From Isurus oxyrinchus (taxonomy: Eukaryota), in assembly GCA_026770705.1 (NCBI GenBank), contig JANJGN010000053.1, positions 3,162,001-3,226,000 of the forward strand: 64,000 nt of DNA. The letters are read 5' to 3'. The notes under the pieces were generated by a model. It saw only the letters and a program-made list of their open reading frames with translations. It was not told the origin of the DNA and did not search any database. Made by a program: the position numbers and the translations under genes. Shown one piece after another: positions 26,436 through 60,642 of this stretch. Position 1 is the stretch's first letter; each line of letters begins with the position of its first letter.

Positions 26436-26829
26436 CCTGTGCCTCTGTCACGTTGAAAGTACTAATGTCCCATTCGTGAGGAGTCAACTCTGTCATAAAT
26501 GTCCCAGTGCTGTGGGGACATAAAATGGCCTCTGTGAACAAACCTAAAATGGTTGCCTAGTGTTTGGAGATTTTTCTTACAGAATCTGAGAGAGAGAGAG
26601 AGAGAGAGAGAGAGGAAGAGAAGATGCAGAATGAGGGAATGTTAAAGAGAGATACAGAGTGAGAGGGGGTGAAGAGGCAGATGATGAAAGATTGATATCA
26701 ATCATAGCCTTGGGACAGTTATGACTGAGATGATTTATGGCAAACTTGTGTCATTTTAACTTTAGCAGTTAATAAATCCCAAGATACTGACACAGACACG
26801 GGCTTTGCAGCAACAGAAAGATTGAGAAT

Positions 26830-27690
26830 CATAGATACCCGGGAGAGAGTTACAGACTGGAATCTAATCGAGGGGTTGGGGGTGGTTTATATACAGAATA
26901 ACAGATACCCGGGAGTGAGTTACAGACTGGAATCTAATCGAGGGGTTTGTGGGGTTTATATATAGAATAACAGATACCCCGGAGTGAGTTACAAACTGGA
27001 ATCTAATTGAGAAGTTCAGGAGGTTTATATATAGCATAACAGATACCTGGGAGTGAGTTACAGACTGGAATCTAATCGAGGGGTTTGTGGGGTTTATATA
27101 TGGAATAATAGACACCTGGGAGTGAGTTACAGACTGTAATCTAATCGAGGGGTTTGTGGGGTTTATATATAGAAAGTAGATACACGGGAGTGAGTTACAG
27201 ACTGGAATCTAATCGAGCGGTTTGTGGGGTTTATATATGGAATAATAGACACCTGGGAGTGAGTTACAGACTGTAATCTAATCGAGCGGTTTGTGGGGTT
27301 TATATATAGAATAATAGATACCCGGGAGCGAGTTACAGACTGGAATCTAATCGAGGGGTTTGTGGGGTTTATATATAGAATAATAGATACCTGGGAGTGA
27401 GTTTCAGACTGGAATCTAATCGAGGGGTTTGTGGGGTTTATATATAGAATAATAGATACCTGGGAGTGAGTTTCAGACTGGAATCTAATCGAGGGGTTTG
27501 TGGGGTTTATATATAGAATAATAGGTACCTGGGAGTGAGTTTCAGACTGGAATCTAATCGAGGGGTTTGTGGGGTTTATATATAGAATAATAGATACCCG
27601 GGAGTGAGTTACAGACTGGAATCTAATCGAGGGGTTCAGGGGGTTTATGTATAGAATAATAGATATCTGGGAATGAGTTAAGACTGGAAT
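26830..27690. repeat. 69-bp satellite A, second array
   Basis: About 12 tandem copies; the right flank (27705-27880) matches 18603-18780. Confidence 0.95.
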
Positions 27691-28099
27691 CCCGAACCGT
27701 TGAAAATATCATTTTTCTTGTCATGTGCTGAAGTGCAGGTTACAGAGGCTGATTCATGGAATGCGTAGTGTGAGTTTTTAACCAGCTTTATCCCAAATAT
27801 CAAATTGAATTTCTCCTTGGAACTATTTAGTGTTTTCTTAGACTTGACACAAATGGATAGGGATCTTTGGACACTCACTGTTCAGGGGCATTTTGTGTTG
27901 GGGAGGGAGGGAACAGAGGGGATGGCTCCAGACTGGGGCATTCACACGGGGAAGGTGGGGAGAGAGAGGCTTTCACAGCAGGTGTGGAGATAGGGAAAGT
28001 CACGGGATCCTGCTGTGTAAAACAATAAAACCCAGAGGCTGTCAGCTTTTCCTGAACTGCATCAGTGACCACACTTGGTAGAAATGGGGTAATGGAGGG

Positions 28100-38469: not shown

Positions 38470-39685
38470 AGTTCAGGTGGGTAATTTTGGGGGAAAATTT
38501 GTTGGGGGGGGGAGTGCAGAGGAAATTCTGGGGGGGGACTAAATTTGTTGGGGCGGGAAAAATTGCTGTGGAAATTTTTTGAGGGGGGTGTGGGCTGTGA
38601 TTTGGAGGGGGATAATTTGCAGGGCTGAATAATTTGCAGGGGAGGGAGAACATTTTTTGGGGGGGAGGAAGTTTGCAGGTGGAATAACCTGTGATGGGGC
38701 TTAATTTGCAGGGGGGAAATAAACTGTGCAGGGAAAAATTTGATGGGGGGGGGGAAATTGCGGGTGTTGGGTGGAGAATTCCTGGGGGGGGGGGAGAAAT
38801 ATTTGCGGGCCCGATATCTGCAGGGGGAACAATTTGCAAGGGGGGAAATTTGCGGGGTGGAAAATTTCAGGGGGGGGCGAACTTGCATGGGGGGAGAAAT
38901 ATTTGCAAGGCAGGGATGAACAGGGGGAACAATTTGCGGGAGGAACAATGCGCAGAGGGGAAAATTTGCGGGGGTAAATTACGGGGGGGAATTCATGGGG
39001 GGGATTTGCGGGGGGGAAAATTTGTGGTGGGGGAAATTTGTGGGGGAGCGGGAAATTGTGGGGGAAATTTGCAGTGGGGGGAAATTTGCGGGGGGAAGGT
39101 TTGTGGGGGGAACTTGCAGGGGTGGGAATTTGCAAGGCGGAAATTTGCGGCGGGGAGAAATTTGTGGGGGGAATGATTTTGGGTGGGAAATTTGCGTGGG
39201 AAAAATTTGCGGGGGGAAATTTGCTTTGGGGACAATTTACGGGGGGGATTTGCGGGGGGAATTGGGGGGGAATTTGTGGGGAGGGAATTTGCGGGGGAGG
39301 AATTTGCGGGGGAGAAAACTGTGGGGGGAAATATGCGGGGGAGAAACTTGCAGGGCAGAAATTTGCAGGGGGGGAAATTTACGAGGGGGATAATATGCGG
39401 GGGGGGGAAATTTGCAGAGGGAAAATTTTGCGGGGGGATTTTTGCGGTGGGGAATTTTGCGGGGAGGGGAATATGCAGGGTGAAAATTTGCGGTGGGAGA
39501 ATTTGCGGGGTGGAAAATTTGCAGGGGGAAATATTTGTGGCGGGAAAATTTGTGGGGGGGAATTTGCGGCAGGGAGAAATTTGCAGGGGGGGAGAAAATT
39601 GCAGGGGGGAGAAATTTGCAGGGGGGAAATCTGCGGGGGGAAATTTGCAGGGGGAATTTGCGGGGGGGCCAAATTTAGGGGGAGG
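38470..39685 (+). repeat. G-rich degenerate array (G3-8 AAATTTGC)n
   Basis: Dozens of GGGGGGAAATTTGC(A/G) units with extreme G skew on the plus strand. Confidence 0.9.
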
Positions 39686-40152
39686 AATCTACCCTCTGCT
39701 GGACAATGTCAGAATCACACACATAACTTTACCAATCTACCCTCTGCTGGACAATGTCAGAATCACACACACACCTTTACCAATCTACCCTCTGCTGGAC
39801 ACTGTCAGAATCACACACACACATTTACCAATCTACCCTCTGCTGGACACTGTCAAAATCACACACATACCTTTACCAATCTACCCTCTGCTGGACAATG
39901 TCAAAATCACACACACACCTTTACCAATCTCGTTCTGTCGAAGGGTCATGAGGACTCGAAACGTCAACTCTTTTCTTCTCCGCCGATGCTGCCAGACCTA
40001 CTGAGTTTTTCCAGGTAATTCTGTTTTTGTTTTACCAATCTACCCTCTGCTGGACACTGTCAGAATCACACACACATCTTTAGCAATCTACCCTCTGCTG
40101 GACACTGTCAGAATCACACACACACCTTTATCAATCTGTCCTCTGCTGGACC
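39686..40152. repeat. 48-bp minisatellite (ACCAATCTACCCTCTGCTGGACACTGTCAGAATCACACACACACCTTT)n, interrupted by an insertion
   Basis: About 5 units, a 100-bp insertion, then about 2.5 units. Confidence 0.92.
39931..40030 (+). mobile_element. short interspersed element remnant (Penelope-like terminal repeat fragment)
   Basis: GAAGGGTCATGAGGACTCGAAACGTCAACTCTTTTCTTCTCCGCCGATGCTGCCAGACC..., nearly identical to 62430-62520, flanked by a TTTACCAATCT duplication. The family name is recalled, not searched. Confidence 0.7.
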
Positions 40153-43805: not shown

Positions 43806-43924
43806 TCACACATCACCGCCGGCACTTTCCGGTCTGAAGAAATCACCAGCAACACCTTCCAGCAGCAAGTGATCGCCCTGAGAATCATTGTCTCTAGTCT
43901 CAGCATCGTCGTAATGGCCGAGAT
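43806..43924 (-). CDS. cytoplasmic exon 3 ([39 protein letters not shown])
   Basis: TTTGTTCCTCGCAG|AT; YDDAE motif typical of WC1-type tails; TGA at 43808-43806. Confidence 0.75.
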
Positions 43925-46900
43925 CTGCGAGGAACAAACCATCTTCATTGACAGTAATTGCTAACAATGAATAGTTAGAGTCAACCAATCAGAGGGGATG
44001 ACAGAGATTCTATTGCGCATGTCGGGGAGGGAGATAAAACGTGGAGAATTTTTGGAACAAATCGCCTCTCAGTATTTTTATTTTTTGTTTTGTTGTCCCG
44101 TCTCTCACTGACTCAATGATCTCACCAGCCTGCATGCACATTTCACATTTCATAAAATACTGGGCCTTGTGATGAAACGTATAACATGATATGTTCTCTA
44201 AATAAAACTATTTCACTCTTTTATATTATTGACTGCATTCACCTGAAAATAGATCAGCTTGAAAGTATTTTAGAAGCGTTTTTATCTAACGTCACTGTAA
44301 TAGCTGATCTCATAGTCCGTGCAACTTAATGGTACATTCGTCCTTGTTAATAGTTCATATTCGAGTGTAGATATTACTGAGTGTGAAGGATGAAAACCTG
44401 ATGGCCGGAGCAAAAGGTTTACCCACCCTGAACACTGGAGGAGTTCTCGTCAGGATTTTCTGATCCACGACCTTTGTCATCCAAAATGTGGCTGGTGTAG
44501 TATTCGATATGGTTGTGAGAGTCAATGGAAGCAGAAACTGTTAAAGAGAGGGGGGAATAAAATCTCTGGTTCTTGGAGCAAGTAGGTATGTCATTATAGC
44601 GTCATCACGCTGCAGAAACATTCAGCCCATCGGAGCAGAGGTCAAAATAATTCATGGTCCGTGTCGCAATGTCCGGGTGTTTATTACATTACGTCAACTT
44701 TTCCAGAACATTCGCCCAATGTACTGGAGTGTTTCAATAGGAAAAACAATTATCAGCTGATCACGGCATCCAGGGATGAACATTAAATCTTCCGGGTGAC
44801 CTCGCGAAGGCAATTTTACCCTCAGTGGGTCACTGGGTATAGTTTCCTTATCCACAATCCCCCTCCCCCACCCCCTCCACAAAACCACCATTCTCTTTCA
44901 TTTGCATAGGCTTTAAATCCATCCCTTTTGACGGAAGAGAAAGGAACTCATGGGCAATAGAATCAAAAAGAGGCCAAAAAGCATTTTATGATCATTCTTT
45001 TCAGCATGTTTGGATAACTTTCGTTCGTAATATAGTGTCCATCCTTGTGAGGTGCAGTGACCCTCATCAACTACTCCTACATATCTTTTAAAATTTGCTG
45101 AACTGGACTGTAAATTCTAAACCAGATTCCCTCTAACTAATGTTCGATCGAGGTTCACCAGGCTAATATTGTTATTTAAATCCATCTATCAAGAACCAGA
45201 TTATACTGTTTGGTTTGGCTTTTGACATTCTGATCATTCTGCATCGATTGTCGTGTTTTATTTGTTTCCCTGAACTCCTGTAGCCCACAACTTTAATATT
45301 CAATTCCTATTCAGCGTTACAGATGGAAAATTCATTCTTAGTTTACATACCTGATTGTAATTCCCTGTAATTAATTAAGTGGAGATTCATTTGCAAATCG
45401 TATGTCCAGTGACGGAAATTTATTAATGGGTGTTTTTAAAACACTTTCACTACCTCCCAGCGCATCACAATTTGGTCAGTCGTTACAGTTAGAAAAATAT
45501 ACCATTTTTATCCAAAGTCTAAATCGTTCAGACAAGTTTTGAACAACAGTGATATTAGCAGGGAAACGTCTTGAAAGCCCATTCCCACTTTATTTCCTCT
45601 ACATAACTACCTTGTATTCCACACTTTGTTTTCTGTCTTGTAGGCAGCAGGCTACACATTCTCATAGGTGACTCCATTTAAAAGTAACGAATAAGACCAA
45701 CCAGTGCTTTTCATGATCTCCAGATGTCCAAAGCTGTTTGCAGCTAATGGATACAACTGATGTATCGTCACCATTGAAATATGGGAAACACGGCAGGCAA
45801 TTTGGCCACAGCAATCTTCCAGGGGCAATCGCAGCGATGTGCTAATTAGGAGATAATCTGGCTTTGTGATTTTGATCAAGTGATACATACTTGTCAGTAT
45901 ACCAAGGGCAACACTCAAATCTCCATGTGAAGACATTTTGGTCACCACTTAAACAACGCCTCTGAAAGAAAACCCTGCCAAGAGGGCATCAGCCGCTCAT
46001 TGCAGCACCAGAGTCTCAGCCTTGATATTTCTCTCCAAGTACTGGAGTGGAACTGAATCCCGAAAGGGATTGATTCAGAAGCAATACTCACACCTACTGG
46101 GCAATAGCTGAGTGGTACGCACTTGCCTTATCCATCTGTATATTAAGTGGACATTTCTGAAAAAATTATGTATCCACAGAATTTATGTCCTCACTGCTAA
46201 GCTTATCTATGCTGCTAACTTTTTGAAGGTTTTGGTGAGGTTCTGAAAGTGAGAGATCTCATTATGAAGTATTTGCTGACTGTGCTTTACTTGGTTTGAT
46301 GCAAATGTGTACTCTTTTCCTCATTCGTATCAATTACACTCGTTTTTCTCCCCCCAACGTTCAGAAAACGGATCTTTCTTCCCGGGATATTTTCAACCTT
46401 CCTATGAAACTGTGGATTTAATGACAGTTATCCGCCAGGATCGTGGCACAACCACCGCTTGAAATGAATTGGTTAATCACTGTAAATGTGCCTCTGCTAT
46501 CTTATAATATTTGTCTGTAATGAATGAAAGCAAACTGTGCTGTTGTTGGTGAGTGTTTTATAATTTTATTATTAAATTAATTTTAAATGTAATTTTGTCA
46601 TTCCTATCCTTATTTCCCAACGTCATGTCCTCTTACATTTTACCCCTGGCAGATACTAAAAGAAAAATTTTGATTAATGTTTCTGATGTTTCATGAATGC
46701 TGGATATTATTCTTTCAGTTCCTTTTGGAATACGGTCACGTAATTCTGAACCGCATGTCCATTTTAACTATAAACATTGTGCTAACTTACTAGACAATCC
46801 AAGATCATTTCATTGATTAGTTGTAATTATCACCATAATTACATTGGTCGTCTTTTTTCATATTCTCCCCTTTCCTGCTTTGCCAACCCGCCGCTTCCCA

Positions 46901-49900
46901 CCATTGTTATTCTTCCCTATGTTATCGTCATTTCTTTGTTTTTTCTTTGTTGTTCCCCACAGTTTTCCATAGTGTTTAACATATCCTTGTTAGTTATTGA
47001 AACATATTCCCTTGGACTCGGTTTGATTTTTTTTTCTCCAATACAGATATACATAATATTGGATAAAATATTCCCAAATTTCAATCTCTGCCCCTGAGAA
47101 CAGGGGTCCTTCAAGCTGTCATAGTTGGTGTGAGTGGTTTGCAATGTCTATTCAGTAATCCTCTCTCTGTATAATTTATTCAGTCAGCTTTCTAATGGAG
47201 CCAGGGAGCATTCTGTTTGTAAGTTGGAAACAGCGATCTGCTTGCTATTTTCAAATAAACGGCAAAACACCTTTTGAGCAACGCAGAATTTTGAGAATTT
47301 TGAGAAGCTCATTACTCTTCACATATAACAGACACACACGGATATAGGGCGCTTTCACATGAGGAAAGTGAGCTGAATGCCAGTCGTGCCCATTCATTGT
47401 ACTGACTTAGAAAGCAGGTAAACGGAAACAGAATTTCCCAGTGTAGAATGGAGGTGCAAAGGGAGTTACAAACCTGAGCCACGGGTCAGAGCAGGATCCT
47501 TGACCGGCGGAATATCTTGAATTTCTTCATAAATTGCTTGGTACATAGCTGTCGGTGAACCCCAACTGCCAGTGACAGAACCTGATGGAGGAAAGGCAGA
47601 GAGATTAACAATTTGTTGTGTTTTACCATTGTTTAATAATGAAACGTTTGCAAATAATAACACAAAGAAGATGGTGAAAGTGAATGCAGATAGTCAGTGA
47701 GCTGGTTAAGAAGGATCTTTTGTTAAGTATGTGTTTTTTTAAGAGAGAGTGCGTATCCATATATCTGTGTGTGAGAGAGACTGAGAGGCAGAGAGAGATA
47801 GATGGTATGTGCGTGTGACTGTGTCTCTCTGTGTATGTGTGTGTGTGAGTGTGTGTGTGAGTGTGTGTGCGTAACTGCATATATGTGTGTGTGAGAGAGA
47901 GAGAGACTGAGAGGCAGAGAGAGATAGACGGTATGTGTGTGTGACTGTGTCTGTGTGTGTGTGTGTGTGTTTGTGTGTGTGAGAGAGAGAGACTGAGAGC
48001 CAGAGAGAGATAGACGGTATGTGCGTGTGACTGTGTCTCTGTGTGTGTAACTGCATGGACACGTGTTCAACTCCACTAGACTACGGCCCAGTTTAATTAA
48101 TGTTAGAAAAGACGAAAAGAGGCTTTTTCGGGAGAAATCAATTCCAGCTGATCACTCGGGGATTTCAGCTGAAGAGAAGCAGGGGAAAAATCGCTGAATT
48201 CTGATGACATCATTAGGTTGGAAAGACCCGCGAGGAGCTCACGCTTCCTTTCTGTATCACATCAGAGTTAAAATTAATTTGAAGTGCGCATCGAACATTT
48301 GCGCGAATATTGTTCAGATCGGAGCAGTTAGTTATGTAAGGGTACAGAATATTGATAAATGGGTGCCGAAGATCCTATAAAAGTTTCACGTCTCAAAACC
48401 TTGGATCGATGCTGGCTAGAGAGCTCAAAGTTGGCCATCTGGACAAGGAAACGGAAACAGTGGACAGACACTGATTGGATAGACGTCGATTGCCTGATAC
48501 AAAATTACAGGGCATCATGTGTAAATTGCTTCCGAGAACCTTCTGATCTATGGCTACAACAATTAGTTTCACCTTGAGCCACAGTAGCGGTGGATCTAGT
48601 AGGACTGAGAATATGGACAGTCAATGACTCTTCCATTTAAATGTCACATTGTACTGTTCCACCAAGTGCTTTGAACTAGAATGCTGGCTAAAGTTGGCTA
48701 ATATTGGTTTCCACCGTGACAAGTGACAACGTGTGGAAAAAGTTAATAAAGTGAATCCTCACCAAGATATGAAGCATGAAAAGGCCCGAAAGAATTCGAG
48801 CCAATAGGATTCGGGAGGAAACTCTTCGCTGCTTGGAGTTGGAGTGCGCACAAAACAAGGGAGTTTTCGCTGATGCAGGTAAATCATCTTTCAGTCCTGG
48901 GAAATTAATACAGGAGCACCTCAGCCAAGGGTGCTAGGCCCATCGATCATAATCTGTTTCATTATTGACCATGTCTTCTTCTGACGGTCATGAGTGCGAA
49001 TGTTCGCTGATGATGGAACAATGTTCAGCTCAACTTCTGCAGCAGGCTGTGTCCACATGCAGACAGACATGGACCATACACAGGCTGACATTCAAAGTGG
49101 CGAGTACAATCTGTGACACAAGTGCTAGGGAATGACCATCTCTAACATGATATAATCTAACTGTCAGCCTTTGAGTTTCAGTGGCACTGCCGTCCGTGAA
49201 TCCCCAGCTAACAACATCCTGGGGGATTCCATTGAACAGAAACTGAACTGGGCTTGTGAAATAAATGAGGTAGTGACAAAGGTTCAGAGGTAACTCAACT
49301 TTTGACTTGGCAAAACCTTTAAACGATCTACAAGGGACACTCAGGAGCGTTAGTGAATACACACCAAAATGCCTGTTTGAGTGCAGCTACAACAAAACTC
49401 AAGAAGTTTGCCACCATCCAGAGTACAGCCTTCCACTTTATTGGCACCATATCCACAAGCAATCATTCCCTCCACCACCGACGTACAGTGGCATCAGTGT
49501 GTAAAATTTACAAGTTACAAATGAAGAATTCAGCAAGGCTGCTTAGACAGGGCCTTCCAAAACCACATAAACAAACATCGAGAAGTACAATGGAAGCAGA
49601 CACATTGGAAAACCACGTCCTGGAAGTCACCCTTCAAGCTTCTCACATCATTATTTGGATATATGTCGCCATTACTGCCCGATCGCTGGGTCAATCATTA
49701 AACTCCATCCCTAATAGCACTGTGGGGTTACCTACGCAACATGGACTGCAACGTTTCAAGAAGGCAGCTCATCATCACTTTCTCAAGGGCAATTATGGAT
49801 GGACAATGAACGCAGGGCTGCCAGTGAGGCTGTAATCTCATTCATGAATTTGAACGAAAAATAAAAATATCAGAGATTTAATGTGAAGTCAGTGGTTAGA

Positions 49901-52900
49901 TTTGAGTCTCACCTTTCCTTGATGATTGTCTCTGCATTAGCACAATTAGTGCGATGAACTCACAGATCAACAGGATCCCGAGTGTTATACCGATCACAAG
50001 AGAGATGGAAGTAATTTCATCTTCATGACCTTAATGAAATGTTAGAAACAGATACAAAAGAGACACTGAATGCTTTGTATTTTTAAACGGTCCATCAGTC
50101 TGAAACACTCAGATTAACTTCAAATTTAAAAAAAACACAAAAATGTTAACAATAGCAGTCCATTCGGTGCATTAGCCTCGACAGGATTATTACTTTTTAG
50201 TGAGACCTATCTGTGGGTGTGTAAGGAGAACCAGGCGACGACAAATCAGGACCTTGGGGTATTATGCAAAAAAACGATAAAGCATTAATTTAGAAATACA
50301 TCTGTTGTTCATAATTTACGAATTCATCAGTTATCTTCAGCGAACAATAAACAACCACTACTATCCCGGCCCCAGACCACACCGTTAAGAACTACCCCTA
50401 CCTGAACAAATCACACTGGCAACCTCCTTGTGATCACAGTCAGATTGAGCAGATGCTGAGGAAGGACAATCGGGGAGAAAGGACTCGCTTCCGGTACACC
50501 TCACCTCATCGAGCCAGATATCACCTTCACCCTGGCCAAAAGCGCCCCCCCCAATGGCCAATAGAGCAGATCCACAATTCAGCTGCCTGCAGACAACATT
50601 GGCATCGGCCATATCCCAGGAGTCATCACAAACCGTGCCCCAGGTATTATTGCACGTTATCTCCACTCGCCCGGAGCAGTTGGTGTTACCTCCAACCAGA
50701 CGCAAACCTGCACCCGAATCTGTCAAAGAGAATCAATCACTATTATTTCAGCGGAAAAATACAGGGATACAATTCGGCTAATTGGTGTAAGAAAGCGGAG
50801 TAATCACCTGATTTTCGACCGCAATCCTTCTCACTGTCCGGTTGTCCCTTCGTTGTCTTTCCTACTGTGAGTAAGGAAACGTGCTGACTCATTTGGACAT
50901 CAATGTGTGAAATACTACCCGCACATTCGATGGTTTATTTTGATACCTGAACAGGAAACTCCTGCATCTTCTCTGTGATAACAGTTGTGTTGTCCCCACG
51001 GGTCTGTCCGACACTGCCAAATGGCCGACTCGTGAAAATTACATTCCATCTCATCGAGCCAAATAGGTCCGGATCCTTCTCCGAATGACCGAGCGGTATA
51101 GTCTATAGTAACCAGGGGGCCACACTGTAACTGTTTACAGATCACCTCAGCATCATGGGAATCCAATGATTCCGAGCACACTGTTCCCCAGATCCCATTG
51201 TAGAACACTTCCGCCCTCCCCTCACAGTGATGCTTTCCATTCACCAGCCGCAGATCTTTGTGTTGTATCAACGAAAGAAGAAATCTCCAGATATTTTCAG
51301 TGATAAATGGAATCATGTCAACAGTGCCCCCTCCACCCACGTTGTGCCAGATGTGTTTACTGAATAGAGATAATTATTTCAGAAAAGTAACAGAGGCACA
51401 TTTAGCATTCAATTATACAATCAAGGATAATCAACACAGATTTCGAAAGAGCGAATTATACATTTTCCAATTCATTGCTTTACTTGAAGAAGTTTCAGAA
51501 ACATTATACAGAGATAATCATGTGTATGTAAACCGCATGGATTTTGAAAAAAAAACAATAACTTTCGAAAATTTATTCCTCAGCTGAATTAAGGCTGAGA
51601 TCAGGGAATATGAAATTTAGTGACACGGTAGAAAAAGAAGATCCAACAGGGAACAATGCAGGATATCACTTATAACAGTAGAAGTCGGGGCGTGGTGTGC
51701 ACATGAAATGCTGCTGGGGGTCACTTTTGCTTAAGATTAACAAATAACATTTGCTAATTGGAATTGAAGTACATATTCAAAATGAACTACGGCTTGCAGT
51801 TAACACCAAGACAAATTCCACTCACTGCATGCACACGTTCAGAGACTGCAGGATAGGCGTGTCAATGACGAAATTATTTCACTACTGATTAGCATAAATT
51901 CATGTACGTTTGGTGGGTTCAATTGTACCGATGCCTTGACTGTGATATTTGATAAAAACACGAAGGGAATAACAGAGTTGAACTCAGCTCGGGCCAGGTG
52001 AAATCATATAAGACTCATGAGCAGATTAAGCAGCAGTCAGACGCGTTGAGCCGAATGGACAGTTCATGCGCGGTTTCTGCGCCATTCAGTAAAATGCCAT
52101 CTGCGTGAAACTTCGCTTATAAAGGAAATGAGTTCATTGAGGTCACCCTTACCTGAGCACATGATCTTCACATCTTCTATGTGAGTACAGTCGTGCGAAC
52201 CCCAATATGCCGAGGGGCATTGCCAGAGAAACGATTCCTCCCCTGAACAGTTCAAGCCTTCCAGCCAAACTGGACCTGAGCCTGGTCCCCAAGTGGCAGG
52301 AAGTGTCACGTCCAGAGCCTTTCCGCAATGCAGCTGTTTGCAAACTACGTCAGCGTCTGTCCGATCCCAGGAATTATCACAAACTGAGCCCCAGGTCCCG
52401 CTGTAATAAATCTCCACTCGGCCTGCACATGGGCTTCCACCGTCTGACAGTCTTAACTGTTTGTGTTCTGGTCCAGAAAATACAGTATTTATCATGATTC
52501 TTTGATTACGCATTTATCTCAAAACTCAATTTAAATTATTCGTTATTATCCAGCAAATGTAATAAAGAAAATAGCTTGAATGTGACAGGTAACTGACTCT
52601 ATGGTTGAAAATATGTATCTCAAATTACTTGAAGTAAATAATGTGGAGTGCACAAATAATTCAGATATTCCGACACCTGACTCCTACGATATTCTGGCTT
52701 GCAGTTCACCTATTGTGTGATCAATGCTGTGTGCGCTGTTTCAACGTCAATTGAACTTTTTGTATTCACCGTTCTAACCAAACTACTTATGAACATGAAT
52801 TGTACACGGTTCTTTTTCTCCCTGCACGCATCTCAAACTCTTATTTCACTCGATTTCTGAATATCTCGCTGTTTTATATTGATAACATGGAAAAAATGCT

Positions 52901-55900
52901 GTAATTCCTCAGGGGTCTGGCAGCATCAGTGGAAAAAGAAACCAAGTTGGCGTTTTAGAGAGACATTTCGGAGATGGTCAGCATTCTGCTGCTGAAAGGC
53001 CTGTAAGTGCCTCGGTATTTCAAGGATGGAATAATCCATGTGCGGCCTGTCACCCTGATCAGTTCATGAACTGCAATTCTGTGAAAACATTGTTAATGTA
53101 ACACACAAATTCGCACCAAGCTGTAAGGGCCCTCCCGACACCACCGCGCCTCCCCCTCAACACATCCCCTGACCCCGCGCCAACAACTGGAACACACACT
53201 CCCAACCGCGCAGGCAGAATTTCCTGTCTGATAGAAAATTGAAAATTCCGCCGGTAATAAATGCGCAGCAAAAATGCATGTCCTGCTTGTTGATCAGTTC
53301 TGTCGGTGCCCACCCTCTACGTGTTAAACCCCCAATGTTAAGCAGTTAGATTAAAAGCACTCGAGGAACAAGTGAAGTACATTCACACATTCCTCCTTAT
53401 TAGATATTTCTATTTAAATTTCTATAAAAGTGAACTATTTATTCACCTGAACACAGTACCCCGACACCGATACTCTCATTGAGAGACGAATTCATTGCAA
53501 ATGAGCTGCAGTTGTGGAGATGAAATTCGTTTCCTCCACACTGGACATCATTCACCCACACAGGCCCTTCACTCTCTCCATACTTTGCAAAGGTATAAGC
53601 GGCAATTGCGACACCACATCCTAGTTGCCTGCAGACCACGGTAGCATCATTGAGGTCCCAGAGGCTGTCCTGTACTCTGCCCCAGCGACCGTTGTGGTAA
53701 ATATCCACCCGACCATCACAGCGGCTTCCCCCATTCGTCAATCTCAGTGACCAGCTTTCATCCACAAAAAGAAAACCATTGAGAGCAACGATTAAAGTTC
53801 AGCAAAATAATGCACATTTTATTCAGTGTAACCTGGGCAATAATTGGTCAATTAAATGTTCCCTTCCTGTTGCTAAGTTGAAGCATATCACTGGGAGCCT
53901 GAATAGCTCTCTGGGCCGGGACGGTGAGCAGCCAGCATTCGTGCTCCGTTACTGGCGCAAAGACCGAGGTAGAATGAAGGATGTACTCCTGCAGATGAAG
54001 TTTAATGATGCTGCCTACATTCTAGCAAGTTGCTGTTAGCGGAGGAATATATTGATAATATTAAAATAACGCAGCACAACGTTCTAGGGATAGAACTGAT
54101 GATTTCGTGGTGGAAATGCTGCTTGAGAAGGCTACTCAAGTTCATGTGACTCTGTGATCTGTTGTCATGGACTTATAGACTCAGTTCTGTGAAGAAAGGA
54201 CAAATGAGCGTTTTCATGTTTTTCACATGAAAAAATCCGGGGGTGATGTCGTCTGGTTTATTTGTTGGGTAGTCTGAACGAATTTGTCAGGGATTTTGGA
54301 ACGGGCCGATAGTGTTAAAGAGACAAACCAAAGTGTTCAGGAAACTAGAAACGAAATATGCATTAACGGAGGAAATAGTGCAGTCTTATTCAAGAAAAGG
54401 GTAACAGGGATTGTAACAGAGCCTCAGGTGTCATTGTGCTGAATAAATTTCTTGACGAGCAGACGCAGGTATCCACCTCTGAAAATGATTCACGATCGAA
54501 ATGGACAATTGGCTTAGACAAGTGCAGGAATATGCAAAAACTCCAAAGCTCCCTGGGTGTTAAAATAGATGGGAGTAAGATGAAGCAGAAAAAAGTGCAT
54601 GTAATATTGAATTTGGATAATGCAAGTGTTATCCACCATTAATATACAATATCCAGAGTGTATAAAAGAGTCCCAATAACATTAAAGCGGATCTTACAGT
54701 CTTATAATGAAGCTCAATGATGGTCAAAGAGTAGGCAGATGAAACAATGGAATTGTTAATTATTTATAACGAGGACGAATTAGCTTGCGTAACTGATGTT
54801 GCACTTAAGGGGACACCTGGAATTTCTGAGATGTACTCAAGGAGCATGACCAATGTCAGAGCCGAAATCGGCAGATAATGGCGATAATCTTCCAATCCAA
54901 AAATCAATGCCGATAGCTGTAGTTTCCAAATATTAAACCCTTGCTCAAGAAAGGGGGTAAAGTTAAACGTAGTAAGAACAGACCAGAAAGTTTAATTTTG
55001 ACTTTGGGAAAGCTTTTTTTCTTGGAAAGATACCTTGGGGCAGAGGTAAGAGACCATTGAAACATTCTGGGTTAATTAACAATCCAGGCCGAATTACTTA
55101 AGAGACAATGGCATTGGCCGGAGGAATTGGAGTATTTTGATGATGTTACTGAGAGTGTTAATCAGGTTAATGCGTTGGATATTTTTTTGATGAACTTTTA
55201 AATGAACTTTGTCAAAGAGCCACGAAATATCCTTGTCAGAAATGCTAGCGCCTGTGGAATAAAAGAAAAATGGCTGCTTGGAGAAGGAATTGCTGTTTGA
55301 AAGGGGACATAATGTCACGTCCAACGTTTCGTTTCTCCAGGCCGGAGAAACAGAAGATTCCAGCTGGCGGGAAACTCTGATTTTTGGTTAATATATTTTC
55401 CTCACCCAGACTTGATTGTAAGGGGAACAATTTCAATTTTGTTTCATATTACACGGCAGGTTGAATTGTTGTAAAATATGAAAAGGATCAATTTCAATCG
55501 GACACTGAGAAGCAGTTAGAACGGGCGGGGAAGTGCCAGATGAAATTCAGTTCAGGGAAGTCTCGGTTGTCCACTTTTGACGGAAGTAAAGAAATTCATA
55601 TTTTAATTAGATAACTTTTTTTTTTCAAAACTACCTGACGTCACAACGCAAGTTACAGTCATTTAATTCCATTGTTAATTGTCGTCACTGCTGCAATGTA
55701 AGTAACGCCGAAGCAATAATAGGCGCAGTAAAATTGCACAAACAGTCGTCTGATAATGACCAGATGAGCTGCATTGTTTGCTGTTGTTCGAGGGCTAATA
55801 TTGGATAGGACACCGGGAAGACTCCCGGGTTTCCCTCAAAGTAGAGTCATTGTTAATATTTTTAGCAACCTTCACTAAAGAATGCAGACATGGCATCGAT

Positions 55901-58900
55901 TTTACCTCTCATCTGGAGCACGACAAATTTTATATGAGAGCATTCCCTCAGCACTGCACTTCATTCTTAGACTGGACTTCTCTGTTAAATAACTTGAGTC
56001 GGGCTTGTACCTGGCCTTGAGCTTGAGAAGTGAGACTGTCATCAAGTGAAGCAAGATTGTCACACGAAGGACGAATAGAAGGAAAAATAAAGAACGGGAT
56101 CATTTCTAAAGGAATGTCAATAGCTGAGGAACCTCGGGTACAAGTCATTGTAGTTTACAGCGCAGGTTGCGAAAAGGCTATTAAATTTACAATCTCTTTG
56201 GTTTATAATTAAGGCACGGAGTACACTGCTGGGGAGTTTAGATGATTCACTTCGGCCTCAACTGGAGTAATCCGTCCATTTATGGACTATACACTTTAGG
56301 GAGGGTTTGAAGACATTAGAAAAGAAGCAGAGATGCTTCAAAAGGTGTGTCCAGAGATTATAACCTTACTTTTTCACCTTAGTTTGGAGAAGCTGCGAAT
56401 ATTCCATTTGGAGAAGGAATGCAAAAAACCTCAGGTCTCTGAACAAAATGATACTGACAAAATGGTCCCATTGTCAGAAGGATCAAGAACGACCAGTACA
56501 GAGTTATTGTAATAGGCAAAGGAAATGGTGACGTAAGGATGTTTATTTTGCATGGCGTCAGTAATTAGGTTCTGCAATGCACTGCCTGATAATGTGGTGG
56601 ATGAGGATCTGCAATGCATGCCTGAAATTGTCGTGAATAAGGATCTGCAGTGCACTGTCTGAGAATGTGCTGTATTAAGATCTGCAATGTTCTGTCTGAA
56701 ATTATGATGGATGAGAATCTGTAATGCATTGACTGAGAATGTGAGTGATGAGGACCTGGTATGCAAAGTATGGAATGTGCTGGACGACGATCTGCAATAC
56801 ACTGTCTGATATTGTGGTGGGTGAGGATCTGCAATTGCCCTGTCTGAGAATGTGACAGGTGAGGATCTGCTGCACGCTATCTGACAAAGTGTTGGATGAG
56901 GATTTCAAATGCACTTTCCGAGATTGTTGGTGACGAGGATCTGAAATACACTATCTGAGAATGTGGCTGGTGTGGATCTGCAATGAACTGCTTGAGAACG
57001 TGGTGGATGTGGAATGCAATGCAATGCTTGAAAATATGGTTGGTGAGGATCTGCAATGCACTGCCTGAGAATTTGGTGATGTGAATCTGTGATGCACTGC
57101 CTGAGAATGTTGTGGATGTGGATTGTAATGCACTGCTTGAGAATGTAGTGGGTGAGGATCTGCAACGCACTGTCTGAGAATATTGGTGACGAGGATCTGG
57201 AAAGCACATGGATGAGAATATCTGGATGGCGATCTGCAATGCACTTTTGTGAAATGTGTTGGATGAGGATACGGAATGCACGTTCTGAGAAAGCAATGGA
57301 TGAAGATGTGAAATACACTGTCTGAGACTGAGGTGAATGTGGACCTGCAATGCACTGTCTGAAAATGTGGCGCATGTAGATCTGCGAAGCACTGTTTAAG
57401 ATTGTGGTGTTTGAGGATCTGCAATTTATTGTTGGACAATGTGAAGGACGAGGGTCTGCAATGCCTTCTCTTAAAATGATGGTGATGACGACCTGCTTTT
57501 CATTGCCGGGGAATATGATGGATGAAGATTTGAAGAGGACCATCCAAGAAATTGGCTGCGAGGATGTGAAATGGACTGCCTGAAAATCTGGTGGATGAAC
57601 ATGGATCGTATATTTAAAAATATAAACGTCAGATATTTGAATGCAAAATAATGCAGGATTATTGTAAATTATCAGGTGTGTGACTGGGTGAGATAATTTT
57701 GCAGAGAAACTGCACAGACTGGACTGGCCAAAAGGTTGCTTTCTGTGCTGCAAAGATTATCTTGTTCCATGATTGAATAGAATAAGAGGACTCACCCGAA
57801 CACATGACACTCGCGTCATTTCCATGTGAGCAGTTAAAATTTTCCCCGGATGTAACCGGACACTCCGACAATTGGGATTCGTTCCCGCGGCACCTGTAAT
57901 TTTCCTTCCACACCAGGCCGGTTCCCTTCCCAAAGGGAGAGATTCTCGGGATTCTCTTTACCGCCCCGCATTGAAGCTGCTCACACACCACACTGGCGTC
58001 CTCTAAAGCAAAGTGAACATCACACAGCGTCCCCCACTGCTCTCCGTGCAGCACTTCTACCCGGCCGGAACACCGGTCCTCACCACCAACCAAACGGTTT
58101 TCGTAGTTCCCTGTTTTGGATAGAAATACAGCCCAAAGCAATTTGAAAATCACCATGAGAATATTTAAATGGAAAAAACGTAACAAAAAAAAAAGAAAAT
58201 TAATAAAACCATTTTGCACTGCACTGTTTTCACATCTTACCATTTGCAACCAACTGAAATGCTAAATGCTCTCAAAAGAACGTGTCTATTTGCTCAGTGT
58301 TCACTTCTTACTTGTAGTTTATCATTTTAGTCATGGATGTTGTCCTGGATTTGTTCTGTGTGTTCCTGGGTTACTTCCTAATTTGATGAATTGTGAATAG
58401 AGATGACCACTGAGCAAGCATGATCAAACAACTCCTCTTCTGAACATAGAATGTAAAGTGGGACGTCAGTGAAACAGTTGAAGATTGTTCGTCATTGATC
58501 AGTAACTTAGAAAGTGGGATTTCCGTTTAATCTCCCTTTAGTTTAGTTTCAAAAGACTTATACAGTTTTACAATTGCTGCGTTTGCAATAGAATCCAACA
58601 ATGTGGAAAATTGCTAATGAATCGGTTCTGATGATGACCAGGCGAAGTCCATGTGTCCGGATTTCTTGGAGGCGGGTTTGGAGAATTCTCCGCTATTCAT
58701 CCAGCAACATAACGCTGTTAAGATTAGTCACTGCAATTGTGTCGTGAACTGCACTTAACATATTTGTTTAAAATCATTTGCTTCTTTCGATCTCAATATC
58801 GATTACATTTTGAAACGAATGGTATGTGCAGTTAACATCGGGATGCTGTTTGCAGCTAATCCCCGTGCTGCCCCGTGACTTAGACTCTTTCCTATGCACA

Positions 58901-60642
58901 GAAAGCTTCGTCCCCAATTCCCATTGCTCAACGTGTAAAATATCAGCCCAAATATTCCGTCCTACGGCCTCTAGGATACCAGAGGTACGGCAGACATGAG
59001 CATGCCGTCCCTGCAGAAATATTGGCGCCTTGATCTATATGTGAACAGCCCGGGAATTTTCAACTTCTTTTGGGGAAATCCCCTGCTCCCTGGGAGAGTT
59101 CACACAAGAGCTTGGATCAAATACTGCGGCGTACTGTCAAGTTCTCCCGGATTCGTTAGCAGGGGAATTTATAAAGGGAGGGAGAAAAAAACAATACACT
59201 AAGAGCCGGGAACTGAACAACCGGGCTCCACAATCGCTCTCACTGAATCCCGCAACAGCATCCCTAACCATCCGTGTGACTGGGGAGGGAGAGGGTAATT
59301 GCTTGCGGGATTTTCCCAACATTATTCTCCCTCCTCGGAAGGTCACAGCAGGAAACCAGCAGCCATACAAAGCATACGTGCCAGTGCGATGTGATGTTAT
59401 TTTTTAAATTAACACAATTTTTGAAATGAATTTATTTTACTCATAATTTCTAATTGAATAAACATTAAGTCCAAAATGGACTGTCCTGTCTTAACTATCA
59501 TTTTTCAGCTATGAGCAGTCCCAAAATAGCATTTCCACCATTACTCCAAGGCAAATAAATCAGACCCGACTTGCGATGAGAGCAGAAAATATATTTGTAC
59601 CTGAGCAGATCACGCTGGCATCAGCTCTGTGTGACCAGGAATAATGAGCCCAGCGATCTGATCTACACTCCCGCAGGGCGGCCTCGTTCCCGCTGCACTG
59701 AACATTATCCATCACAATAGGCCCAGAACCTTCACCAAAGTGAGCCCTGACCGGTGCAGAGACCGCGGTCCCGCAGCCCAGCTCCCGACACACGACAGCG
59801 GCGTCCTGCAGATCCCAGCTGTCATCATCCACAGTCCCCCACTGCCCCCTGTAGTGAATCTCCACTCTCCCTGCACACCGACTGCTCCCATTCGCCAGTC
59901 TCAGTTTCACTGCCTCTGTAAAATACAATAAAATGAGCAGAATTATAACCTATTAAATCCACGAGCCCCAACTAACTGGTCTCCACTTTCTACAGGGCAG
60001 AGCAGGAGAATTTGCTTTATTGACCTGCGCACAATTTCCCATTGAATTATATCAAAAGTGTCAAACGCAAGGTTACAATTGTATTCAACCCTTTAAACGA
60101 ATCGGTAATAAGTGGGAGAGATGCCCCTTCTGGGACAGTCGTTCGATATGTTCAGAGTATATTCCAGCCCCCAGAGACCAGGAGATGGACGTGACTGTAA
60201 GCGCTCACTGACTGAGATGCAACCGGGGGGCAACTTGGAAGCTCCTTCTGAAAGACAGCCCCACCCTCCCCCAAATACAGGAACTGTAACGTCACGTGAC
60301 CTACATCTCTGGCCGGATGGAATTCGCGAATTGGCAGCCCATTTGGGATTCGCTAGCAGTATCAGTTGTTATTGCGCTTCACCTCCCCAGTCATGGTCGC
60401 TCTTCATTCGGCAGCAATTGCCCCTCAACAGTGTTTAATTATGAAAGATTACCGGAGTGCAGGAAACTTTCCATTCCTCCCTGAAAGGCACTGGGAGAGT
60501 GAGTTAATCGTTGATCAAATTGGTACTTGAATTGTCTCTGACTGTTAGTTTTATTTGACGTTGAGTGGACAGGAAGATGTCAAATAATACGAAAATTCAA
60601 AGTTATTACCTGATGGCTCAGCCTGACCGCTCCCAGTTCTGC
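43806..60642 (-). CDS. WC1/CD163 (M130)-family group B SRCR type I membrane receptor with 6 SRCR domains, TM and tyrosine-motif tail; possibly a young pseudogene; leader exon not securely identified
   Basis: 13 exons joined in phase 1 (the last ends in the stop codon): 60642-60610, 59915-59601, 58110-57796, 53761-53447, 52467-52153, 51264(or 51255)-50947, 50864-50808, 50719-50402, 50252-50211, 50029-49913, 47581-47474, 44537-44427, 43924-43806. About 830 codons with no internal stops; three splice sites are non-canonical. Confidence 0.88.
44427..44537 (-). CDS. cytoplasmic exon 2 ([37 protein letters not shown])
   Basis: Strong acceptor CCCCCCTCTCTTTAACAG|TT, donor CAGG|GTGGGT; 111 nt, phase 1-1, open. 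Confidence 0.75.
44940..45670 (-). mobile_element. old CR1-type LINE relic
   Basis: Faint collinearity with the other minus-strand CR1 copies (e.g. TCCAAAGTCTAAATCGTT; TTCCACACTTTGTTTTCTGTCT). Confidence 0.45.
45690..46115 (-). mobile_element. tRNA-derived Deu-type SINE relic (SacSINE1/AmnSINE-like)
   Basis: The reverse strand has a tRNA-like head (CACTCAGCTATTGCCCAGTAGGT...GATTCAGTTCCACTCCAG) and the core GATTGCTGTGGCCAAATTGCCTGCCGTGTTTCC. Confidence 0.6.
47474..47581 (-). CDS. cytoplasmic exon 1 ([36 protein letters not shown])
   Basis: CCTTTCCTCCATCAG|GT...TCAG|GTTTGT; 108 nt; YEEI motif, like the WC1 YEEL. Confidence 0.85.
47755..48060. repeat. compound (TG)/(GA) repeat, about 3 higher-order units
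   Basis: GAGACTGAGAGGCAGAGAGAGATAGA(T/C)GGTATGTG recurs three times. Confidence 0.85.
48600..49835 (+). mobile_element. decayed non-LTR retrotransposon 3' end (CR1/L2-group)
   Basis: MFADD motif (ATGTTCGCTGATGAT at about 49000); ORF 49353-49835 reads [11 protein letters not shown]...[17 protein letters not shown]...[11 protein letters not shown]...[16 protein letters not shown]. Confidence 0.8.
49913..50029 (-). CDS. transmembrane exon ([39 protein letters not shown])
   Basis: TTTCATTAAG|GT...AAAG|GTGAGA; 117 nt; hydrophobic helix followed by a basic stop-transfer. Absent from the ORF track. Confidence 0.88.
50211..50252 (-). CDS. candidate Pro/Ser/Thr stalk exon ([14 protein letters not shown]) with defective donor
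   Basis: CCCCAAG|GT...ACAG|ATAGGT (GT replaced by AT); 42 nt, phase 1-1, in the expected position between the last SRCR and the TM. Confidence 0.45.
50402..50719 (-). CDS. SRCR domain 6 exon (membrane-proximal, d'-like)
   Basis: [46 protein letters not shown]...ASVICS; canonical AG/GT; 318 nt. Confidence 0.95.
50808..50864 (-). CDS. inter-domain linker exon ([19 protein letters not shown])
   Basis: TTTCCTTACTCACAG|TA...TCAG|GTGATT; 57 nt, phase 1-1, open. Confidence 0.75.
50947..51264 (-). CDS. SRCR domain 5 exon (expected acceptor reads AC; in-frame cryptic AAG gives start 51255)
   Basis: [29 protein letters not shown]...DAGVSCS; donor GTATC. Confidence 0.9.
52153..52467 (-). CDS. SRCR domain 4 exon
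   Basis: [34 protein letters not shown]...KIMCS; CCAG|AA..TCAG|GTAAG; 315 nt. Confidence 0.95.
53447..53761 (-). CDS. SRCR domain 3 exon (lacks Cys2 and Cys7; acceptor reads GG)
   Basis: [46 protein letters not shown]...VGVLCS; donor GTGAAT is canonical, acceptor is TTTTCTTTTTGTGG|AT; 315 nt. Confidence 0.88.
54600..56570 (+). mobile_element. old CR1 LINE relic, interrupted by a Deu-type SINE
   Basis: Decayed motifs (AAAGGGGGTAAAG..AGACCAGAAAGTTTAA; CGGCCTCAACTGGAGTA; AGTTTGGAGAAGCTG) collinear with CR1 ORF2. Confidence 0.6.
55630..56065 (-). mobile_element. Deu-type SINE relic
   Basis: Collinear with 45690-46115 (GAGCATTCCCTCAGCACTGCACT; GTCGTCACTGCTGCAATGTAAGTAACGC). Confidence 0.55.
56570..57600. 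repeat. 36-37-bp minisatellite (GAGGATCTGCAATGCACTGTCTGAGAATGTGGTGGAT)n
   Basis: About 28 degenerate tandem units. Confidence 0.92.
57796..58110 (-). CDS. SRCR domain 2 exon (CD163 SRCR5 / WC1 b-like)
   Basis: [44 protein letters not shown]...; canonical AG/GT; 315 nt. Confidence 0.95.
59052..59316. promoter_or_regulatory. intronic cluster of NF-kB-like sites
   Basis: GGGGAAATCCCC at 59072-59083 and GGGATTTTCC at 59307-59316 match GGGRNWYYCC; near-matches GGGAATTTTC at 59052 and GGGGAATTTA at 59162. Confidence 0.4.
59601..59915 (-). CDS. SRCR domain 1 exon (lacks Cys2 and Cys7)
   Basis: [49 protein letters not shown]...ASVICS; TACAG|AG..TCAG|GTAC; 315 nt. Confidence 0.95.
60610..60642 (-). 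CDS. SRCR receptor short N-terminal linker exon ([11 protein letters not shown])
   Basis: TTTCATTTCAG|GC...TCAG|GTAAT, 33 nt, phase 1-1. Confidence 0.7.

What the first reader, a model, noticed from the sequence alone, without database searches (positions are those of the whole stretch)
43806..60642. Six-domain WC1/SCART-like co-receptor architecture in a cartilaginous fish
Seen: six SRCR exons, a TM exon and three cytoplasmic exons with IYEEI, EYYTS and YDDAE. Established: ruminant WC1 (a gamma-delta T-cell co-receptor) and the CD163 family share a membrane-proximal b-c-d-e-d' cassette, and WC1 signals through a YEEL motif with further YDD motifs. Domain 2 resembles CD163 SRCR5 (HG..WG..CD..F.LE.ASV.C..LQCG), domain 5 shares EVFYNG.WGTV with SRCR8/e, and domain 6 resembles d'. 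Inference: this is a WC1-like signalling receptor (x-b-c-d-e-d'), not DMBT1, suggesting the design dates to the origin of jawed vertebrates.
Basis: partly seen in the sequence, partly recalled or inferred. Interest (0 to 1): 0.7.

Follow-up and report, generated by a model that had tools for sequence, protein, structure and literature searches.

The report
Shark WC1/SCART-type immune receptor gene family
This shark gene belongs to the same family as the cattle T-cell co-receptor WC1 and mammalian SCART1, and it is one of about a hundred copies whose outermost domain changes fast where it likely binds ligands, so sharks likely carry a large inherited set of microbe-sensing receptors whose cell type is still untested.

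Summary
The exons are real. The gene is a shark member of the CD163/WC1/SCART family, not DMBT1, although most databases label its relatives DMBT1-like.

The proposed layout needs correcting. Domain 3 is the SCART-type n domain, not c (tree 97/99; AU p=0.002 against c). Domain 2 is b/c-type and domain 1 cannot be assigned. The layout is x-b-n-d-e-spacer-d', closer to SCART1 and the bird/turtle hybrids than to WC1.

Spliced contigs from a related organism join the SRCR, membrane and tail exons. The YEEI, YYT and YDDAE motifs recur in bony-vertebrate relatives, so the design predates the shark/bony-fish split.

Two points were missed. This copy has three damaged splice sites and may be decaying. 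It is one of at least 104 copies in this assembly, and domain 1 shows diversifying selection (omega about 5) on the predicted ligand face.

Expression on gamma-delta T cells is untested. I found no paper on shark members, but one relevant paper was unreadable. This scan noted the family before in three other genomes.

The parts
60610..60642 (-). 33-nt leader exon. The signal-peptide exon before it lies 1.6 kb beyond the window end (G000:C53:3227596-3227641, in L011).
   Evidence: AG/GT ends; same peptide in shark relatives, and signal exon 14 of 17 identical to a relative's leader; open frame when joined; joint to domain 1 in spliced contigs of runs X1 and X11
59601..59915 (-). SRCR domain 1: N-terminal, lacks Cys2 and Cys7, class unresolved (a-position), hypervariable among copies
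   Evidence: Pfam; trees and AU tests; selection tests
57796..58110 (-). SRCR domain 2: b/c superclade, nearer b in sequence
   Evidence: best CD163 match is SRCR5, 107.1 bits vs 89.5 next and 81.3 for SRCR6; b+c clade 100/99, with b 91/87 and 85/66
53447..53761 (-). SRCR domain 3: n type (lacks Cys2 and Cys7); acceptor damaged (GG)
   Evidence: clade with devil SCART1 domain 5, 97/99; grouping with c alone rejected, p=0.0019; acceptor AG in 28 of 30 copies
52153..52467 (-). SRCR domain 4: d type by position and profile
   Evidence: d is the top class, 157.7 vs 132.6 bits; never starred with d in the trees
50947..51264 (-). SRCR domain 5: e type; usual acceptor at 51264 damaged (AC), in-frame AG at 51255
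   Evidence: with e 99/97 and 100/96; acceptor comparison
50808..50864 (-).
   Evidence: tblastn; AG/GT; 54 letters between domains 5 and 6 in spliced contigs
50402..50719 (-). SRCR domain 6: d' type
   Evidence: with d' 96/84; not one clade with d' in the second tree; top standardised class d'
50211..50252 (-). Stalk exon with damaged donor (AT)
   Evidence: GT in 5 of 10 loci; 42 letters between domain 6 and TM in spliced contigs
49913..50029 (-). Transmembrane exon, with a glutamate inside the helix
   Evidence: sequence; acid at this place in 30 of 43 chondrichthyan vs 0 of 124 bony-vertebrate WC1-like helices
47474..47581 (-). Tail exon 1, AIYEEI (matches the Y-[QE]-[DCE]-[IL] motif of WC1/SCART)
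   Evidence: motif defined in PMC2906472
44427..44537 (-). Tail exon 2, EYYTS (YYT-type motif also in turtle and camel WC1-like tails)
   Evidence: spliced joints
43806..43924 (-). Tail exon 3, YDDAE and stop codon
   Evidence: spliced joints

Best explanation
This is one copy of a large shark family of CD163/WC1/SCART-type receptors (x-b-n-d-e-spacer-d', membrane anchor, three-tyrosine-motif tail) that likely bind microbial or other foreign surfaces through a variable first domain and likely amplify antigen-receptor signals on lymphocytes, as WC1 does on cattle gamma-delta T cells. Shown: gene anatomy, family membership, tail conservation, splicing of family members, at least 104 copies, and excess amino-acid change in domain 1 at positions matching the SRCR cation/ligand site. 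Inferred from WC1: ligand binding by domain 1, Src-family phosphorylation of the YEEI tyrosine, co-clustering with the T-cell receptor, and different copies on different cells. This copy itself is likely crippled or shortened by three splice-site changes.
For: Trees: domain 2 in b+c (100/99), domain 3 with n (100/99, and 97/99 with devil SCART1), domain 5 with e (99/97, 100/96), domain 6 with d' (96/84); none of the six falls inside the DMBT1 clade. Standardised profiles built from bony-vertebrate domains only peak at a, b, b, n, d, e, d' for the seven positions of 16 shark and ray proteins. The Herzig tail motif is in 38 of 48 chondrichthyan tails, 0 of 4 CD163 and 0 of 7 other SRCR-TM proteins. 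A shark-only tail profile without the TM hits 52 of 164 bony-vertebrate proteins at E<1e-3, including camel WC1, and no CD163, DMBT1 or SSC5D-like protein. One contig of run X7 spans domain 5, spacer, domain 6, stalk, TM and tail; the joints laid are absent from two DNA-like runs. 104 of 110 domain-5 loci have domains 1 and 3 upstream in order, and 5 of the 104 have a stop in one of these exons. Domain 1: M2a vs M1a 2dL=69.8, omega 5.4 on 16% of sites; domain 3 none, domain 4 marginal. A tree-free count gives a ligand-face replacement rate 1.87 times the silent rate (p=0.007), against 0.25 and 0.33 in domains 3 and 4. WC1 diversity sits in its first domain and signalling needs the YEEL tyrosine (PMC2906472; PMC8356672). 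Cod TCRg/TCRd cells express a CD163-like group B SRCR gene (PMC9276791 passages).
Against: No expression data by cell type, and no transcript of this copy (the contigs are about 87-98% alike, from a related organism). Domain 1 scores as well against DMBT1 as against a (129 bits vs 122.5 for the best CD163 domain; 147.8 vs 144.1), and AU tests reject neither grouping (p=0.188 and 0.287). Raw best hits of domains 3 and 5 are CD163 SRCR7, not c or e, and FastTree put domain 5 beside d'. Domain 4 is never starred with d, and domain 6 is not one clade with d' in the second tree. The window's tail alone is not significant against bony-vertebrate proteins (best E 2300). The shark tail profile misses deer WC1, echidna, ostrich and coelacanth. 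The bony-vertebrate set was partly collected with a tail profile, so its motif counts are inflated. The selection tests use my own code, the 30 nearest copies and mosaic genes, and the 'face' set was fixed after I had seen the variable sites. CD163 itself is a macrophage receptor, so the cassette does not fix the cell type. The TM glutamate is not found in WC1.
Confidence: 0.58

Rival explanations
1. Same family and same variable ligand-binding tip, but the receptors work on granulocytes, macrophages or barrier epithelia as stand-alone pattern-recognition or uptake receptors, possibly pairing in the membrane through the conserved glutamate, and have no tie to T-cell receptors.
For: CD163 uses the same b-c-d-e-d' cassette on macrophages (PMC2906472). 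The TM acid occurs in 30 of 43 chondrichthyan and 0 of 124 bony WC1-like helices. A repertoire of about 100 copies is far above WC1's 13 (PMC3511184). No shark T-cell marker evidence was found.
Against: The tail is of the WC1/SCART type and not the CD163 type (0 of 4 CD163 tails carry the motif). WC1, bovine CD163c-alpha and mouse SCART2 are all on or enriched in gamma-delta T cells.
Confidence: 0.27
2. This copy is a decaying duplicate, and the high copy number is largely a by-product of segmental duplication (and partly uncollapsed haplotypes) in a region that also multiplied a GPCR family; only a few copies matter.
For: Three damaged splice sites. Using the next AG at domain 3 gives a stop at residue 239, and the next GT at the stalk exon a stop at residue 691. 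A twin copy is 99.55% identical over 40.8 kb and shares all three changes. Copies sit on 53 contigs at a median spacing of 315 kb, many of the contigs shared with at least 127 GPCR copies.
Against: All damaged exons are symmetric; skipping domain 3 leaves an open 720-residue frame. Only 5 of 104 loci have stops in the three exons checked. Domains 3 and 4 are under purifying selection (pN/pS 0.42 and 0.33) while domain 1 diversifies. 57 of the gaps are between copies on the same contig, and 26 of the 30 nearest domain-1 exons differ. About 0.45 that this one copy makes no useful protein; much lower for the family.
Confidence: 0.13
3. It is a membrane-anchored DMBT1/SSC5D-like gene, as most database labels of its shark relatives say.
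For: 56 of 65 chondrichthyan hits are named DMBT1-like. Domain 1 scores highest against DMBT1 and that grouping is not rejected.
Against: Domains 2, 3 and 5 lie in starred b/c, n and e clades away from DMBT1. The domains are directly abutted, not separated by long spacers. There is a TM and a WC1-type tail straight after the last SRCR, where the DMBT1 references carry Pfam PF00431 and PF00100 (CUB and ZP; names recalled).
Confidence: 0.02

Closest known systems
CD163c-alpha / SCART1 (m-l-b-c-n-d-e-d') and the chicken WC1/CD163c hybrids (a ... c-n-d-e-d') of PMC2906472
   Same: n domain lacking Cys2/Cys7 in front of d-e-spacer-d'; TM; Y-[QE]-[DCE]-[IL] tail motif and later YDD motif (devil SCART1 P0339; ostrich and turtle a-b-c-n-d-e-d')
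   Different: No m or l domain; no clear c (the seven-domain shark type has two b-leaning domains, and this copy kept one); glutamate in the TM; about 100 copies instead of 1-2 (mammals) or at least 18 (chicken)
WC1 (SCARI) of ruminants, a-[b-c-d-e-d]-[b-c-d-e-d'], and six-domain WC1-11 (a-b-c-d-e-d')
   Same: Multigene array with diversity concentrated in the first domain; first domain lacks Cys2/Cys7 as in deer WC1; tail with YEE[IL], YY[TI] (camel P0195) and YDDAE; spacer between e and d'
   Different: Has n, which WC1 lacks, and no c; orthology of domain 1 to a is not shown (bird, turtle and echidna first domains keep Cys2/Cys7, so the loss may be convergent); cell type unknown
CD163 (M130), h-i-j-k-b-c-d-e-d'
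   Same: b/c, d, e and d' domain types
   Different: No h-i-j-k domains (the haptoglobin-binding part); CD163 tails lack all three motifs (0 of 4)
DMBT1 / SALSA
   Same: Group B SRCR repeats; domain 1 is generic enough to score as DMBT1-like
   Different: Type I membrane protein with tyrosine tail; distinct b, n and e domains; no long spacers, no CUB/ZP end

Membership tests
CD163 family (CD163/CD163c/WC1), as defined in PMC2906472 | Group B SRCR domains that cluster with CD163-family classes rather than DMBT1, CD5 or CD6 | tested here: met
   Domains 2, 3 and 5 starred with b/c, n and e in both careful trees, domain 6 with d' in one; none inside DMBT1. CD5 and CD6 were not in the trees; they appear only as weaker PDB hits.
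CD163 family (CD163/CD163c/WC1), as defined in PMC2906472 | Membrane-proximal e and d' domains followed by a TM | tested here: met
   e 99/97 and 100/96; d' 96/84, unresolved; TM exon follows and is spliced on in family transcripts
WC1/CD163c-alpha subgroup | Y-(Q/E)-(D/C/E)-(I/L) tail motif | tested here: met
   YEEI at 47520-47531; 38 of 48 chondrichthyan tails; shark-only tail profile hits 52 of 164 bony-vertebrate proteins
CD163c-alpha / SCART | Diagnostic n domain (lacks Cys2 and Cys7) | tested here: met
   Domain 3 has 6 Cys and groups with devil SCART1 domain 5 at 97/99
CD163c-alpha / SCART | N-terminal m and l domains and a c domain (m-l-b-c-n-d-e-d') | tested here: not met
   Only two domains precede n; neither groups with devil m, l or c; no further SRCR exon before the signal-peptide exon
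WC1 | N-terminal a domain (diagnostic) | tested here: inconclusive
   Unresolved in trees; AU p=0.287 for a, 0.188 for DMBT1; shark position 1 peaks at a on average, the window's domain at DMBT1 then a
WC1 | b-c-d-e cassette without n | tested here: not met
   Domain 3 is n; grouping with c alone rejected, p=0.0019
WC1 | Multigene family with diversity concentrated in domain 1 | tested here: met
   104 loci; 10 sites with four or more residues in domain 1, vs 0 and 2 in domains 3 and 4; selection tests
WC1 | Expression on gamma-delta T cells; tyrosine-dependent co-receptor activity; binding of bacteria | not testable with these tools
   Runs are coded, without tissue or cell type; no family name found in shark single-cell papers or their held supplements
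CD163 (CD163A) | h-i-j-k domains (k diagnostic) and CD163-type tail | tested here: not met
   No domain groups with k; tail of the other type
DMBT1 | Near-identical SRCR repeats with long spacers, then CUB and ZP domains; secreted (features partly recalled) | tested here: not met
   Six different domain classes, spacers of 1-2 residues except one short spacer exon, TM straight after domain 6

The most novel reading that the evidence does not exclude
Sharks carry a germline repertoire of about a hundred WC1/SCART-type receptors, diversified at the ligand face of the first domain and shuffled by gene conversion. They are expressed in combinations on gamma-delta-type T cells and docked to the T-cell receptor or another basic-helix partner through a membrane glutamate. 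That would be an ancestral third co-receptor system of jawed vertebrates, in a group where CD4 has been hard to find, which humans and mice reduced to one or two SCART genes.
Probability: 0.25. Interest if true: 0.8.

Novelty: new member of a known kind. Interest (0 to 1): 0.52.

Why it matters
The published account traces WC1/CD163c-type receptors back about 315 million years, to the bird/mammal split (PMC2906472). The same cassette and tail occur here in sharks and rays, and also in named sturgeon, gar, tarpon, carp, coelacanth and amphibian proteins. This moves the design to the last common ancestor of living jawed vertebrates. The ancestral form looks like x-b-c-n-d-e-d', with ruminant WC1 and CD163 derived from it. 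About a hundred copies with a fast-changing ligand face would be one of the larger germline immune-receptor repertoires in a vertebrate, currently hidden under the label 'DMBT1-like'. It makes a standing hypothesis testable with existing shark single-cell data: that WC1-type arrays go with gamma-delta T-cell-rich immunity.

Tried and rejected
Best-hit scoring against CD163 domains misassigns the fast-evolving classes: domains 1, 3 and 5 all hit SRCR7 first. Raw class profiles have the same bias. I therefore relied on standardised scores and trees.

An AU test of domain 3 + n + c as one clade was not rejected (p=0.141), so only direct orthology to c is excluded.

The search for more SRCR exons upstream found none in 60 kb. 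No remnant of the missing second domain was seen between domains 1 and 2 (output partly cut).

No run on record as RNA held the stretch, which says nothing about expression. The laid contigs come from a related organism.

The ESM Atlas gave only SRCR clusters at scores of 0.81 or less, so leads only. A tail search with the divergent subfamily found only lamniform sharks (4 proteins among 81 candidates).

Literature searches for shark members found none. Term searches in shark single-cell and genome papers were blank; supplements may list the genes under other ids. Redmond et al. 2018 (J Immunol, haptoglobin and CD163) is not held and may already treat CD163-like genes of cartilaginous fish. 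The figures and supplementary table of PMC2906472 were not seen.

No structure or complex was predicted. Jawless fish and chimaeras were not tested: none was among the named hits, but only 20 of the about 140 unnamed representatives were looked up.
Full report
1. What is in the sequence. The gene lies on the minus strand. All six domains pass Pfam SRCR. Comparison with shark relatives added a signal-peptide exon 1.6 kb beyond the window end, a 57-nt spacer exon between domains 5 and 6, and a 42-nt stalk exon. Joined without the stalk exon, the frame is open for 825 residues. No other SRCR exon lies in the next 60 kb, so six domains is the full count.

2. Are the parts joined? No run on record as RNA held this stretch. 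Contigs of a related organism (about 87-98% alike) were laid at relaxed identity. Runs X7 and X11 cover exons and, apart from repeats, not introns. They show joints from leader to domain 1, 2 to 3, 3 to 4, 4 to 5, 5 to spacer to 6, 6 to stalk to TM, TM to tail 1, and tail 1 to 2 to 3. One 1050-nt contig runs from domain 5 through the TM into the tail. Two DNA-like runs lack the joints in the stretch laid there, domain 3 to TM. So the family is spliced as modelled. This copy itself was not seen as RNA.

3. This copy is damaged. The domain-3 acceptor is GG; 28 of the 30 nearest copies have AG, and the two exceptions are the window and its twin. The domain-5 acceptor is AC against AG in 8 of 10 loci, with an in-frame AG 9 nt on. 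The stalk donor is AT against GT in 5 of 10 loci. The twin shares all three changes, so random sequencing error is unlikely. Skipping domain 3 leaves an open frame of 720 residues. Using the next AG gives a stop at residue 239, and using the next GT at the stalk a stop at 691. The copy therefore makes a shorter receptor or is decaying; I put about 0.45 on no useful protein.

4. Which family, which domains? A search with domain 3 gave 164 proteins, 120 listed, 65 of them from sharks and rays; 56 of those 65 are labelled DMBT1-like. Against human CD163 in the PDB, domain 2 prefers SRCR5 (b; 107 vs 89.5 bits). Domains 1, 3 and 5 prefer the generic SRCR7, so best hits are not enough.

A careful maximum-likelihood tree of 109 selected domains (of about 1600 cut) places domain 2 in b+c (100/99; with b 91/87). 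Domain 3 goes with the domain that precedes d in coelacanth, turtle and birds (100/99), domain 5 with e (99/97) and domain 6 with d' (96/84). Domains 1 and 4 are open, and none lies in the DMBT1 clade. A tail-profile search of 50%-identity representatives and name look-ups for 20 of them supplied Tasmanian devil SCART1. In a second tree of 95 domains, domain 3 groups with its fifth domain, n (97/99), and domain 5 with e (100/96); domain 6 is not one clade with d' there. Holding domain 3 with c alone is rejected (AU p=0.0019); holding it with n and c together is not (p=0.141). Domain 1 is rejected neither with a (0.287) nor with DMBT1 (0.188).

Profiles built from bony-vertebrate domains only, standardised for generic score, peak at a, b, b, n, d, e, d' over the seven positions of 16 shark and ray proteins. 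The window's gene has lost position 2, as have its near copies. Other copies keep it. The layout is therefore x-b-n-d-e-spacer-d'. By position domain 2 stands where c stands in other vertebrates, and b versus c is only weakly resolved. PMC2906472 (read: abstract and parts 1-5 of 7 of the main section; figures not seen) defines n as diagnostic of CD163c-alpha/SCART and lacking Cys2 and Cys7, a as diagnostic of WC1, and describes chicken hybrids with both.

5. The tail. That paper names Y-(Q/E)-(D/C/E)-(I/L) as the shared WC1/CD163c motif whose tyrosine is needed for WC1's boost of T-cell activation. It is present in 38 of 48 chondrichthyan tails, 125 of 127 bony WC1-like tails (a set partly chosen by a tail search), 0 of 4 CD163 and 0 of 7 other SRCR-TM proteins. 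YY[TN] occurs in 26 of 48 and 83 of 127; camel WC1 carries all three motif types. A profile of shark tails alone, without the TM, hits 52 of 164 bony-vertebrate proteins at E<1e-3 for a 5.8-billion database. Most top hits are turtle proteins, plus camel WC1. It misses deer WC1, echidna, ostrich and coelacanth, and the window's single tail is not significant. Named relatives found by the tail include sturgeon, gar, tarpon, mormyrid, carp, characin, coelacanth, caecilian and toad. The design was thus present in the last common ancestor of living jawed vertebrates. Chimaeras and jawless fish were not tested.

6. The family in this genome. Domain 5 has 110 near-full-length matches at 72% or more. 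104 of these have domains 1 and 3 upstream in order, 5 of the 104 have a stop in one of the three exons, and they lie on 53 contigs at a median spacing of 315 kb. Further divergent clusters lie on C17 and C2. Counts are lower bounds from capped searches, but haplotype duplicates could inflate them up to twofold.

Among the 30 nearest copies, domain 1 has 10 sites with four or more residues, domain 3 none and domain 4 two; pN/pS is 0.67, 0.42 and 0.33. My own codon site models give 2dL=69.8 with omega 5.4 on 16% of sites for domain 1, nothing for domain 3 and p=0.05 for domain 4. PMC7043408 (passages) lists six residues that hold the exposed, ligand-bridging cations in DMBT1 SRCR8. Mapped by motif at a constant offset (my reading; no direct alignment was shown), four of the six are among the 14 selected sites (p=0.003). 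Because copies are mosaic, I added a tree-free count: replacement changes on that face run at 1.87 times the silent rate (p=0.007), against 0.25 and 0.33 in domains 3 and 4. The face was fixed after I had seen the variable sites, so this p is optimistic. This mirrors WC1, where most diversity is in the first domain.

7. How it likely works. Shown: a type I membrane protein family with a variable tip, a conserved stem and a conserved tyrosine tail. Inferred from WC1 (PMC8356672 passages): the tip binds microbial surfaces, the receptor clusters with an antigen receptor, and Src-family kinases phosphorylate the YEEI tyrosine, raising the response. Different copies would give cells different specificities. 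The cell type is the weak step. [quoted passage not shown] But CD163 is myeloid, and no shark data were found (PMC11372145 and PMC10529500: term searches in text and held supplements). The membrane glutamate (30 of 43 vs 0 of 124) is a shark-specific difference that could mean a partner in the membrane; this is untested.

8. What is known. Nine literature searches for shark members found none. PMC12235456 (first part of text) treats WC1 only in mammals. Term searches in PMC2681482, PMC13346766, PMC6238376, PMC9207270 and PMC8455134 gave nothing relevant. Redmond et al. 2018 could not be read and may cover CD163-like genes in cartilaginous fish. This scan has noted the same family in three other genomes. 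I took the leads on the membrane acid and on selection from those notes and tested both here.

9. Verdict. It is a new member of a known kind. Its interest lies in the age of the design and in the size and selective signature of the shark repertoire.

Noticed in passing
window 10168-11106 (-): Single-exon rhodopsin-family GPCR (Pfam 7tm_1) with at least 127 copies in this genome, many on the same contigs as the SRCR genes. Earlier scan notes call the family GPR139-like.
   Followed up: partly
G000:C2:236.4-237.5 Mb (L095-L097): A second, divergent shark subfamily (about 10 loci, 50-56% identical in domain 5) with layout x-b-c?-n-d-e-d' and tail motifs YEDI, EYYT and YDDV. It looks closer to the ancestral form.
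   Followed up: partly
G000:C53:951001-991844 (L017-L021): Twin of window 40406-64000 and beyond, 99.55% identical over 40.8 kb, sharing all three damaged splice sites. It is a very recent duplication or a second haplotype.
   Followed up: partly
G000:C79:591343-600332; G000:C105:1462782-1475251: Mosaic copies. One has domain 1 identical to the window's but domain 5 at 94%. Another has domain 3 at 99% and TM and first tail exon at 100%, but domain 1 at 86%. This suggests gene conversion or exon swapping.
   Followed up: no
window 49913-50029 (-): Glutamate in the membrane helix, found in 30 of 43 chondrichthyan and 0 of 124 bony-vertebrate relatives (a pattern match, so a lower bound).
   Followed up: partly
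window 43915-47474: Spliced contigs of runs X7 and X11 include a form that joins tail exon 1 to tail exon 3 and so lacks the YYT exon: an alternative splice or another copy, like the short and long WC1 tails.
   Followed up: no
window 13814-14325, 17467-21793, 26825-27691, 38957-39930: Tandem repeats of 30, 69, 15 and 48 bp units, and a LINE-like open stretch at 23742-24365 (-) (class recalled, not tested).
   Followed up: no
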